A stretch of 10,981 nucleotides of DNA from the IMG/VR virus record IMGVR_UViG_2562617057_000004, positions 1 to 10,981 of that record; one strand, given 5' to 3'. The translations under genes and the position numbers were made by a program. Below the pieces are notes generated by a model. That model saw only the letters and a program-made list of their open reading frames with translations. It had not been told where the DNA came from and did not search any database. Positions 3,976 through 4,173 of the stretch are shown here, in pieces. Numbering within the stretch: position 1 is the stretch's first letter; every line of letters begins with the position of its first letter. The stretch is from a virus (lineage: Duplodnaviria > Heunggongvirae > Uroviricota > Caudoviricetes).

Positions 3976-4135
3976 GGTGTCGAACAAAAAAACAATCAAA
4001 ATCGACACCATAAAAATAAAACCACTGTAATATCAATCCATTACAGTAGTGGTGATGACGAATGAAATTTCAAAAACTAGCCTTTTTCCGCGCCGCTCCC
4101 GCCCCGTGGCAGGTCACTACACCGGGAGGACCCAT
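3976..4135 (-). other. Lambda-type cos site, copy B (same cosN core as copy A, different cosB)
   Basis: Minus strand ATGGGTCCTCCCGGTGTAGTGACCTGCCACGGGGCGGGAGCGGCGCGG; 18-nt core ACGGGGCGGGAGCGGCGC identical to copy A; cosB side has GGTGTCGA/TCGACACC inverted repeat (3976-3983, 4002-4009) and IHF-like TATCAATCCATTA (4031-4043). Confidence 0.6.
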
Positions 4136-4157
4136 AAAAAAGCCGGATTGCTCCGGC
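4136..4157 (-). terminator. Rho-independent terminator after ssb
   Basis: Minus strand GCCGGAGCAATCCGGC followed by TTTTTT, 17 nt after the stop at 4174. Confidence 0.6.
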
Positions 4158-4173
4158 TTCTGTTACTCGTTGC

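What the first reader, a model, noticed from the sequence alone, without database searches (positions are those of the whole stretch)
3976..4160. Second cos-like site in direct orientation 2.4 kb away, with a different cosB
The 18-nt core ACGGGGCGGGAGCGGCGC and the upstream GGGTCC..CCGG segment recur at 4090-4135, again just past a terminator, but the cosB side has a different repeat (GGTGTCGA / TCGACACC) plus an IHF-like TATCAATCCATTA. Two direct cos sites with one cosN and two cosB flavours bracketing the capsid operon could mean recognition by two TerS specificities (helper TerS versus the island HTH protein), or a trace of cos-mediated module acquisition.
Basis: partly seen in the sequence, partly recalled or inferred. 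Interest (0 to 1): 0.8.

Follow-up and report, generated by a model that had tools for sequence, protein, structure and literature searches.

The report
Two captured phage packaging sites
This E. coli phage satellite carries two DNA-packaging (cos) sites, each a near-exact copy of the site of a different helper-phage lineage, which probably lets it be packaged by either phage; two cos sites were already known in its published relative, but in a different arrangement.

Summary
The 18-mer ACGGGGCGGGAGCGGCGC occurs exactly twice (1650-1667 and 4090-4107, minus strand, 2,440 bp apart). Each copy follows a hairpin terminator and a GGGTCCT cosQ core.

The window is a roughly 10.85-kb satellite (PICI) of the EcCICFT073 family, whose two cos sites (cos1, cos2) were published in 2018 and 2019. 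The phenomenon is therefore known, and why such islands carry two sites is stated there as an open question.

New points:
- Copy B (3982-4133) is 97.4% identical to the cos of mEp460/phi458-type phages.
- Copy A (1368-1667) is 96.7% identical to the cos, cosB and first 24 Nu1 codons of a rare second phage lineage.
- The two lineages share this cosN, but their large terminase subunits are only 24% identical and their small subunits show no detectable similarity.
- The window has no Rpp and no TerS.
- The layout (both sites direct, flanking the capsid operon) differs from EcCICFT073, but recurs in at least 20 related islands.
- All three complete E. coli genomes with this module also carry the rare copy-A-type prophage (8 of 5,426 genomes).

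Best reading: dual-helper packaging signals. Function was not tested.

The parts
4136..4157 (-). Intrinsic terminator ending the replication/ssb operon, immediately upstream of copy B
   Evidence: GCCGGAGCAATCCGGC plus a T-run. Folds at -18 kcal/mol, z -4.06. 21 of 22 nt identical to the terminator before copy A (D11).
4127..4133 (-). cosQ-like core GGGTCCT of copy B
   Evidence: Present 27-28 nt upstream of ACGGGGCGG in every cos site collected; the search pattern itself required GGGTC in that position. Lambda cosQ as given in Fig S5 of PMC6092414. This is where homology to mEp460-type phages starts.
4093..4104 (-). cosN of copy B: inferred 12-nt cohesive end GGGCGGGAGCGG, inside the 18-mer at 4090-4107
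   Evidence: Aligns with lambda ACG|GGGCGGCGACCT: the first six bases are shared and positions 7-12 differ. The cut position is inferred from lambda, not measured.
3982..4092 (-). cosB of copy B, mEp460/phi458 flavour. Contains the IHF-like site 4031-4043 inside the inverted repeat 4021-4050, and the invariant GGTGTCGA at 4002-4009
   Evidence: 94.3% over 157 bp to phage mEp460, where it lies between the lysis genes and terS. 97.4% over 152 bp to phage contig L034. Conservation pattern. This flavour occurs in 717 of 5,426 complete E. coli genomes.
3916..3964 (.). Hairpin with T-runs on both strands, between copy B and the capsid-operon promoter. Island backbone, shared with EcCICFT073
   Evidence: Inverted repeat I11. 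Homology to CFT073 starts at 3962.
1725..3792 (-). Capsid-like operon bracketed by the two cos sites: 79 aa of unknown function, a lambda E-like major capsid protein, a gpD-like decoration protein, and a 137-aa Nu3/scaffold-like protein
   Evidence: Pfam Phage_cap_E 9e-50 and HDPD 3e-17. PHROGs: the 137-aa protein matches the C-terminal part of the head maturation protease family. 91.7% identical in DNA to the EcCICFT073 operon.
1698..1721 (-). Intrinsic terminator ending the capsid operon, immediately upstream of copy A
   Evidence: Found by the terminator scan. Folds at -18.3 kcal/mol, z -3.42.
1688..1694 (-). cosQ-like core GGGTCCT of copy A. The surrounding cosQ segment is the lambda/EcCICFT073 cos1 type, not the type found in the copy-A phage lineage
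   Evidence: Identical to the CFT073 site in the same position. Homology to the phage contig begins only at 1667.
1653..1664 (-). cosN of copy A: the same inferred 12-nt end GGGCGGGAGCGG, inside the 18-mer at 1650-1667
   Evidence: The variant ...GCGCAGA is shared with five phage contigs of the copy-A (L050) type.
1440..1652 (-). cosB of copy A, in the flavour of phage contig L050 (related to phage PhiR12_1). Three R-like repeats ATGTCCGGTT at 1605-1614 (-), 1548-1557 (+) and 1518-1527 (+)
   Evidence: Window 1368-1667 is 96.7% identical over 300 bp to phage contig L050, and 83% to PhiR12_1, where the sequence lies between Rz and Nu1. Repeats. Same flavour family as the published EcCICFT073 cos.2.
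1368..1439 (-). Remnant of a phage small-terminase gene: the first 24 codons of a PhiR12/L050-type Nu1 (VATQTEVARHLSLTDRQLRRLQKL), then out of frame
   Evidence: Identical to the PhiR12_1 Nu1 N-terminus. DNA homology to the phage ends at codon 24. Annotated as an incomplete pseudogene in strain VL7S7.
1055..1339 (-). Conserved 94-aa last gene of the island family (phrog_1561, function unknown). It marks the end of the position that holds rpp or terS plus an inverted cos in relatives
   Evidence: 70-81% identical to the 93-aa proteins of the CFT073, EH41 and IHE3034 islands. PHROG match.

Best explanation
Both sequences are genuine lambda-type cos packaging sites of an EcCICFT073-family satellite that has neither Rpp nor its own small terminase. 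I call the position between ssb and the capsid operon slot B, the position just after the capsid operon slot A, and the position after rpp/terS slot C.

Each site sits just after an operon terminator. Each consists of a cosQ core, one shared cosN (inferred cohesive end GGGCGGGAGCGG) and a cosB recently copied from a different lambdoid phage lineage.
- Copy B comes from the common mEp460/phi458 type.
- Copy A comes from a rare lineage, represented by phage contig L050, that combines PhiR12-like Nu1 and gpA terminase genes with a lambda-like E/D head.

Proposed mechanism (inferred):
1. During helper induction the island replicates as a concatemer.
2. The helper's own TerS binds whichever cosB it recognises, and its TerL nicks the adjacent cosN.
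3. DNA is packaged towards lower window coordinates.
4. Packaging ends at a later cosQ-cosN once the head is nearly full.

In lambda the terminal cos needs cosQ and cosN but not a cognate cosB (recalled from Feiss-laboratory work, not checked here). Either site could therefore end a packaging run. The identical cosN would make ends from the two sites mutually cohesive.

The result would be one island packageable by two unrelated terminases, that is, a wider helper range without an adaptor protein.

Shown: sequence identity to the phage cos sites, their position in the phages, the absence of Rpp and TerS, the recurrence of the architecture, and co-residence with the copy-A phage type. Inferred: that both sites are cut and used.
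For: 1. Copy B is 94.3% identical over 157 bp to mEp460 and 97.4% over 152 bp to phage contig L034. In these phages the sequence lies between the lysis genes and terS.
2. Copy A is 96.7% identical over 300 bp to phage contig L050. The match starts exactly at ACGGGGCGG and runs through three R-like repeats into Nu1 codon 24. The distance from cos to Nu1 is 228 nt in both.
3. The two phage lineages have different terminases: TerL is 24% identical and blastp found no match between the two TerS proteins. Both carry this 18-mer.
4. The window has no Rpp or TerS homologue at E<=10 apart from the Nu1 remnant. EcCICFT073 RppA matches RppC (PDB 6HLK) at 5e-31, so the search could have found one.
5. Experiments on the sister island showed that both EcCICFT073 cos sites enable plasmid transfer, that deleting both abolishes island transfer, and that cosB decides which site is used (PMC6092414, PMC6739421). 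The published cos.2 has the same cosB flavour family as window copy A and is 93.3% identical over 179 bp to the PhiR12_1 cos.
6. In every island surveyed that has two or three cos sites, the cosB flavours differ from one another. This covers at least 20 islands with a protease-capsid fusion gene and two direct sites, and IHE3034 and Nissle with three sites.
7. All three complete genomes carrying this module (VL7S7, O121 201805972, FDAARGOS_943) also carry an L050-type prophage at 98.6-99.6% identity. That prophage is found in only 8 of 5,426 genomes. The same pairing appears in two IMG genomes (L049 with L050, and L093 with L092).
8. The copy-B flavour is in 717 of 5,426 genomes. The copy-A flavour is found at full length in only 18. 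Acquiring copy B would therefore open a much larger pool of helpers.
Against: - No functional data exist for this island, and no packaged termini have been mapped.
- In EcCICFT073, cos2 was dispensable with lambda and phi80, and deleting it increased transfer. An extra cos can therefore be neutral or costly with a non-cognate helper.
- The closest relatives (L021, L037, L065; 93% identical across the capsid operon and copy A) lack copy B altogether. Copy B is not needed for the element type to persist.
- The cosQ segment of copy A is the lambda/EcCICFT073 type, whereas the L050-type helper has the mEp460-type cosQ. The effect on termination is unknown.
- In IHE3034 and L041 the several cos sites of one island have different cosN sequences. 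A shared cosN is therefore not a general requirement, and here it may be coincidental to the two source phages.
- The co-occurrence statistic ignores strain relatedness.
Confidence: 0.6

Rival explanations
1. Only copy A is the working packaging site, used by the co-resident L050-type prophage. Copy B is a passenger left by recombination with a protease-capsid-type island and an mEp460-type phage. At most it serves as an extra termination point.
For: - The co-residence evidence concerns the copy-A phage type only.
- The nearest relatives have copy A alone.
- The left flank of copy B (4062-4803) is 95.4% identical to the protease-capsid-type island L012, and the match ends just past cosN. That looks like a recombination scar.
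- EcCICFT073 cos2 was dispensable.
Against: - Copy B keeps the complete phage cosQ-cosN-cosB at 97% identity, including the invariant GGTGTCGA and the IHF-like site.
- The position between ssb and the capsid genes carries a cos in at least 20 related islands, always with a flavour different from the site after the capsid genes.
- That flavour has been exchanged at this position: mEp460 type here, an L072-phage-like type in the protease-capsid islands, and a third type in IHE3034. This argues for selection on what sits there.
Confidence: 0.2
2. The direct cos pair exists as a cassette boundary. Cutting by terminase, or recombination at the conserved cosQ-cosN, lets the capsid module between the sites be lost, gained or swapped. 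That modularity, rather than helper range, is what is selected.
For: - L045 and L062 lack the capsid gene and have a single hybrid cos, made of the cosQ from the site before the capsid gene and the cosB from the site after it. This is the product expected from start-at-A, end-at-B packaging or from recombination between the two sites.
- Two unrelated capsid modules (E/D type and protease-capsid fusion) occupy the same cos-flanked position.
- Breakpoints lie exactly at cosN in window copy A and in the L050-type phages themselves.
- CFT073 and DETEC-P649 are inversion isomers across their two inverted cos sites.
Against: - All of these events are explained by ordinary homologous recombination in a roughly 50-70-nt conserved patch flanked by variable DNA.
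- The inversion cannot arise by cut-and-ligate, because the overhang is not palindromic.
- Loss of the cassette is a consequence of having direct repeats, not evidence that the repeats are selected for it.
Confidence: 0.1
3. Copy B is a decoy. A phage-type cos carried on a high-copy replicating island titrates or misdirects the terminase of mEp460-type phages, interfering with the phage rather than serving island transfer.
For: - The island lacks Rpp, the known interference factor of this family.
- Copy B is an almost exact phage cos.
- Interference with the helper phage is described as a conserved feature of PICIs.
Against: - A cos that is bound and cut on an island concatemer would lead to island packaging anyway, so this is not a separate outcome from the best explanation.
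- There is no direct evidence for it.
- The flavour-matching pattern fits use for transfer.
Confidence: 0.06
4. The repeat is a terminator-associated or chance repeat with no relation to packaging.
For: Both copies directly follow near-identical terminators.
Against: - The exact 18-mer occurs twice, against 0 of 200 shuffles.
- Both copies extend into 150-300 bp of 97% identity with phage cos regions.
- The family's cos sites have been tested experimentally.
Confidence: 0.01

Closest known systems
EcCICFT073 cos1 and cos2 (Fillol-Salom et al. 2018, ISME J, PMC6092414; 2019, Mol Cell, PMC6739421)
   Same: - Same island family: the capsid-like operon is 91.7% identical, with the same primase, ssb and last gene.
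- Two cos sites with similar cosQ and cosN and different cosB.
- One site lies directly after the capsid-operon terminator.
- The published cos.2 has the same cosB flavour family as window copy A.
- The authors list 'why two different cos sites' as an open question.
   Different: - In EcCICFT073 the second site is inverted and lies after rppA. Here the second site is direct and lies before the capsid operon, where EcCICFT073 has a PerC-family gene.
- The EcCICFT073 cos1 cosB is island-specific and is read by an Rpp-TerS heterodimer. This window has no Rpp, and both of its cosB segments are 97% copies of phage cosB.
- cosN is GGGCGGCGACCT in EcCICFT073 and GGGCGGGAGCGG here.
- The authors reported finding no phage cosB in the island. 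Here cos.2 is shown to be 93% identical to the PhiR12_1 phage cos.
Lambda and phage 21 cos, with cosB/TerS specificity (Feiss laboratory; annotated in GenBank M81255)
   Same: - cosQ GGGTCCT, a cosN beginning ACG|GGGCGG, and a cosB with three R-like repeats and an IHF site.
- Located just upstream of the small terminase gene in the phages.
- Packaging specificity resides in cosB and TerS.
   Different: - Positions 7-12 of cosN differ.
- Both cosB flavours differ from those of lambda and 21.
- In the island no terminase gene follows either site.
HE-PICI 11capE, which shares its cos region with its helper prophage (PMC10111431)
   Same: A satellite without terS, of the same family, that carries a 258-bp stretch 90% identical to its helper's cos region.
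   Different: One site matched to one helper. Here there are two sites matched to two phage lineages.
SaPIbov4 and SaPIbov5 (cos-type SaPIs of Staphylococcus aureus)
   Same: Satellites packaged through a phage-type cos. SaPIbov4 is cited as having two putative cos sites.
   Different: An unrelated sequence family and host. No information was obtained here on their arrangement.

Membership tests
Lambda-type cos site (cosQ-cosN-cosB) | cosN related to the lambda nicking site ACG|GGGCGGCGACCT | tested here: met
   Both copies read ACG|GGGCGGGAGCGG. The first six bases of the overhang and the ACG flank are identical to lambda, phage 21 and phi80.
Lambda-type cos site (cosQ-cosN-cosB) | cosQ element (GGGTCCT) about 27 nt upstream of cosN | tested here: met
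   4127-4133 and 1688-1694. The same spacing holds in all 132 sites collected, but the search pattern required GGGTC 18-38 nt upstream, so that count is partly built in.
Lambda-type cos site (cosQ-cosN-cosB) | cosB with repeated TerS-binding (R) elements and an IHF site | tested here: inconclusive
   - Copy A has three ATGTCCGGTT repeats in an R-like arrangement.
- Copy B has an exact IHF consensus whose conservation pattern fits an IHF site, plus invariant GGTGTCGA and an inverted repeat.
- No TerS binding data exist for either flavour.
Lambda-type cos site (cosQ-cosN-cosB) | Homologous sequence sits between the lysis genes and the small terminase gene in phages | tested here: met
   phi458, PhiR12_1, phage 21, the NR301 and fS10a prophages, and dozens of IMG/VR phage contigs.
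Lambda-type cos site (cosQ-cosN-cosB) | Cleavage by terminase to give 12-nt cohesive ends | not testable with these tools
   Needs mapping of termini on packaged DNA.
EcCICFT073-type Gram-negative cos PICI | Integrase, AlpA-like regulator, primase/replication module with iterons, genes all in one direction, size about 10-12 kb, flanked by att repeats | tested here: met
   - Integrase at 9743-10981, an HTH regulator gene at 9124-9420, a D5-type primase at 5141-6895, and iterons at 4890-5130.
- A 17-nt att core at 173-189 recurs 22 nt beyond int in relatives, giving a size of about 10.85 kb.
EcCICFT073-type Gram-negative cos PICI | Rpp protein that redirects the helper's TerS to an island-specific cosB | tested here: not met
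   No window ORF of 35 aa or more matches RppA at E<=10. PDB searches with the two ORFs next to copy A found no RppC match. The control, RppA against RppC, gave 5e-31.
EcCICFT073-type Gram-negative cos PICI | Published two-cos layout: cos1 direct after the capsid operon, cos2 inverted after rpp | tested here: not met
   The window has its sites before and after the capsid operon, both direct, and no inverted site.
PICI with its own small terminase (as in the EH41, IHE3034, Nissle, O26 and O157 islands) | Full-length island terS following the cos site after the capsid operon | tested here: not met
   Only a 24-codon Nu1 remnant is present.

The most novel reading that the evidence does not exclude
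In this satellite family, and in its helper phages, the conserved cosQ-cosN patch acts as a portable joint at which modules are exchanged, inverted or deleted. The capsid genes between two direct cos sites would then behave as a swappable cassette, and cosB flavours would be replaced to follow whichever helpers are available. If terminase cutting and re-annealing of cohesive ends contributes, rather than only homologous recombination, the packaging enzyme would double as a module-shuffling nuclease.
Probability: 0.2. Interest if true: 0.75.

Novelty: new variant of a known kind. Interest (0 to 1): 0.5.

Why it matters
The authors who described two cos sites in E. coli PICIs left the reason open (PMC6739421). 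This window offers a clean natural case. The island has no Rpp and no TerS, and each of its two sites is a 97% copy of the cos of a different helper lineage with a different terminase.

The proposed answer, one site per helper specificity, can be tested directly with plasmids carrying each site and two available phage types. It also predicts helpers:
- an mEp460-type phage for copy B;
- the rare co-resident L050-type prophage for copy A;
- a PhiR12-like phage for the unexplained EcCICFT073 cos2.

More broadly, it suggests that the host range of these virulence-associated satellites can be read from the flavours of their cos sites. PICIs are also being engineered as delivery vehicles, so which cos to install for which helper capsid has practical use.

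Tried and rejected
- **Capsid-protein scan of representative genomes.** A search for relatives of the major capsid protein returned nothing usable. The survey was done instead through E. coli complete genomes and an exact-18-mer scan of IMG/VR.
- **Rpp or TerS next to copy A.** I tested whether the 99-aa or 74-aa ORF there is an Rpp or TerS. There were no PDB or RppC matches. The 99-aa ORF is the conserved last gene of the family. The 74-aa ORF is a Nu1 remnant.
- **Copy A as a three-part chimera.** I first read copy A as having its cosN converted from copy B, because PhiR12_1, phage 21 and related prophages with that cosB all have lambda-type cosN. This was rejected when five phage contigs (L050, L051, L052, L089, L092) turned out to carry exactly this cosN with this cosB. 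Only the cosQ side of copy A has a different origin.
- **Window as a deletion derivative.** I considered that the window derives from the DETEC-P649 inversion isomer of EcCICFT073 by deletion. This is unlikely, because the window keeps 24 Nu1 codons and a 45-nt segment that those islands lack.
GGTGTCGA/TCGACACC as the cosB repeat: only one arm is conserved in phages.
- **Literature.** A search for later work on two cos sites in satellites found nothing beyond the 2018 and 2019 papers in the held library.

Full report
**1. The observation**

The 18-mer ACGGGGCGGGAGCGGCGC occurs exactly twice in the window, at 1650-1667 and 4090-4107. Both copies are on the minus strand, 2,440 bp apart, and none of 200 shuffles gave two matches.

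Read on the minus strand, each copy is preceded by a hairpin terminator. The two terminators are 21 of 22 nt identical and fold at about -18 kcal/mol, with z-scores of -4.1 and -3.4. Each copy also has a GGGTCCT element 27-28 nt upstream of the core. After the core the two sequences are unrelated.

**2. Context**

All genes run on the minus strand. In order they are:
- an integrase (9743-10981) and a regulatory region containing two C4 antisense RNAs and an isrK RNA;
- a DUF4222 protein, a D5-type primase and a set of iterons;
- an 85-aa protein and ssb;
- copy B;
- a capsid-like operon: a 79-aa protein, a lambda E-like major capsid protein, a gpD-like decoration protein and a Nu3/scaffold-like 137-aa protein;
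- copy A;
- a conserved 94-aa gene.

A 17-nt att core at 173-189 recurs just beyond int in relatives, so the element is about 10.85 kb.

The CFT073 relative next to phoQ is EcCICFT073. It has the same capsid-like operon at 91.7% identity. Its 144-aa gene after the operon matches RppC (PDB 6HLK) at 5e-31.

**3. What is already known**

EcCICFT073 was reported to carry two cos sites. Both enable plasmid transfer. Deleting both abolishes island transfer. cos1 is needed with lambda and phi80, and its cosB is read by an Rpp-TerS heterodimer. cos2 is dispensable with those phages.

The authors could not find a phage cosB in the island. [quoted passage not shown] A later search found nothing further on the question.

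I use three position labels below. Slot B lies between ssb and the capsid genes. Slot A lies directly after the capsid operon. Slot C lies after rpp or terS and is inverted.

Figure S5 of the 2018 paper gives the sequences. cos.1 is the slot A site, followed by rppA. cos.2 is the slot C site, between rppA and the last gene.

**4. What the two copies in this window are**

*Copy B.*
- It matches the cos region of mEp460/phi458-type phages, between the lysis genes and terS: 94.3% over 157 bp to mEp460, and 97.4% over 152 bp (window 3982-4133) to contig L034.
- In an alignment of 22 distinct copies, cosQ, cosN, GGTGTCGA and the WATCAA/TTR parts of the IHF-like site are essentially invariant, and the NNNN positions vary.

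*Copy A.*
- It matches phage contig L050 and four similar contigs: 96.7% over 300 bp, window 1368-1667.
- The match starts exactly at ACGGGGCGG. It runs through three ATGTCCGGTT repeats and ends at codon 24 of a PhiR12-type Nu1 gene.
It then runs out of frame over the 94-aa gene.
- No ORF in the window resembles Rpp or any small terminase.

*The two source lineages.*
- They differ in their packaging enzymes. TerL is 24% identical, and blastp found no match between the two TerS proteins.
- They also differ in head type: a protease-capsid fusion in the mEp460 type, and lambda-like E/D in the L050 type.
- Both nonetheless carry the same 18-mer and the same cosQ-side sequence.
- The L050-type TerL is 92-93% identical to that of PhiR12_1, which has lambda-type cosN. 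Positions 7-12 of cosN therefore seem not to be tightly specified for that enzyme. This is an inference.

**5. Survey of relatives**

Eleven further islands were fetched from complete E. coli genomes. Seventy-nine IMG/VR stretches carry the exact 18-mer. This second sample is biased towards this cosN.

| Capsid module | cos slots occupied | Islands |
|---|---|---|
| E/D type | B and A | window, VL7S7, L049, L093 (essentially one element) |
| E/D type | B, A and C | IHE3034, Nissle |
| E/D type | A and C | EH41, CFT073, DETEC-P649, O26, O157 |
| E/D type | A only | L021, L037, L065 |
| Protease-capsid fusion | B and A, both direct, 2.5 kb apart | at least 20 loci |

- In every island with more than one site, the cosB flavours differ from one another.
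- Several flavours equal those of identifiable phages: lambda-like, 21-like, PhiR12-like, mEp460-like, L064-like and L072-like.
- EcCICFT073 cos.2 is 93.3% identical over 179 bp to the PhiR12_1 cos. It is the same flavour family as window copy A.
- cosN is shared between the sites of some islands and differs in others, such as IHE3034 and L041.

**6. Evidence on helpers**

- The mEp460 cosB flavour is present in 717 of 5,426 complete E. coli genomes.
- The L050-type cos-Nu1-TerL is present at 98.6% identity or more in only 8.
- The dual-cos module of this window occurs at 99.9% identity or more in three complete genomes: VL7S7, O121 201805972 and FDAARGOS_943. All three are among those 8.
- The same pairing is seen in two IMG genomes.
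- Under independence this would be very unlikely, but strain relatedness was not controlled.

**7. Rearrangements at cos**

- L045 and L062 have lost the capsid gene exactly between the slot B cosQ and the slot A cosB.
- CFT073 and DETEC-P649 differ by inversion of the rppA segment between their two inverted cos sites.
- Window copy A joins a lambda/EcCICFT073-type cosQ to L050-type cosN and cosB exactly at ACGGGGCGG.
- The left flank of window copy B (4062-4803) is 95.4% identical to the protease-capsid-type island L012. That match ends just after cosN, where the mEp460 cosB takes over.
- The L050-type phages are themselves mEp460-like to the left of cosN and PhiR12-like to the right.
- Homologous recombination in the conserved patch explains all of these events. 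A contribution from terminase is not excluded.

**8. Interpretation**

The best-supported reading is that both sites are real packaging signals matched to two helper terminases, on an island that relies entirely on the helper's own TerS.

It is established for lambda that cosB is needed at the initiating cos but not at the terminal one. This is recalled from Feiss-laboratory work and was not checked here. On that basis either site could terminate a run started at the other. The identical cosN would make such ends cohesive.

With a 10.85-kb unit, four units (43.4 kb), or four units plus 2.44 kb (45.8 kb), are close to the 44.5-kb mEp460 genome. This arithmetic is only a plausibility check.

Function is untested. 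The main rival is that only copy A works with the resident helper and copy B is a recombination passenger.

**9. Verdict**

The phenomenon is known for the family. The arrangement here and the phage identities of the two cosB segments do not appear in the papers I could search. Together they make the open question of why these islands carry two cos sites directly testable.

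Noticed in passing
L006 (CFT073) 9797-10551 versus L009 (DETEC-P649) 4796-5550: The segment carrying rppA lies in opposite orientations in two otherwise near-identical islands. It is flipped between the two inverted cos sites, so each island presents a different cosB flavour in the position right after the capsid operon. This looks like a cos-bounded invertible segment.
   Followed up: partly
L045 6373 and L062 988 (IMG/VR contigs): These islands read ssb, a single hybrid cos, then terS, with the capsid gene missing. The junction joins the cosQ of the site before the capsid gene to the cosB of the site after it, exactly at cosN.
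   Followed up: partly
L050, L051, L052, L089, L092 (IMG/VR phage contigs): This phage lineage is identical to mEp460-type phages upstream of cosN (end of the lysis region, cosQ, cosN). Downstream it is PhiR12-like (cosB, Nu1, gpA-type TerL, lambda-like E/D head). The phages are themselves recombinants at cosN, and a gpA-type TerL appears to work with a non-lambda cosN.
   Followed up: partly
window 7631-7719, 8109-8196, 8218-8294 (minus strand): Two C4 antisense RNA matches (74 and 75 bits) and one isrK RNA match (63.5 bits) lie in the Icd-like regulatory region. The long ORF 7866-9113 on the same strand is probably spurious.
   Followed up: no
window 4890-5130: Dense direct and inverted copies of GGTAGACAAGGTAGACAGC and GTAGACAGTAAAAAA...CTGTCTACCT between the primase gene and the 85-aa gene. 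These are probably the replication-origin iterons.
   Followed up: no
window 3787-3818: A perfect 15-nt palindrome (AATCATAACTGGATG/CATCCAGTTATGATT) lies just upstream of the first capsid-operon gene and beside a promoter-like site (3843-3816). It is a candidate operator controlling the capsid operon.
   Followed up: no
window 173-189, 615-634, 731-750: A 17-nt att core (AAATTAACTACACCATT) at 173-189. Also two 20-nt direct repeats (CGAAAATATCARCGGGTTAG), the second overlapping the only other exact IHF consensus in the window (737-749). These are possibly arm-type or accessory sites for integration and excision.
   Followed up: partly
window 407-8452 versus L007 (VL7S7), L049, L093: The same element at 99.6% identity or more occurs with a different integrase and regulatory module at a different chromosomal site (near yejO). 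In those copies an IS110-family element interrupts the primase at window position 5875. The window copy has an intact primase.
   Followed up: partly
L041 (IMG/VR contig) 6508, 9045, 9936: An island with three cos sites that have three different cosB flavours and three different cosN sequences. It combines a protease-capsid gene with the terS type otherwise found in islands that have the lambda E/D-type capsid operon.
   Followed up: no
L012, L013 (E. coli CFSAN061768, O121 RM8352): Sister islands replace the E/D/scaffold operon with a single ClpP-like protease/major-capsid fusion gene in the same position. The island's capsid module type matches the head type of the phage lineage whose cos follows it.
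   Followed up: partly
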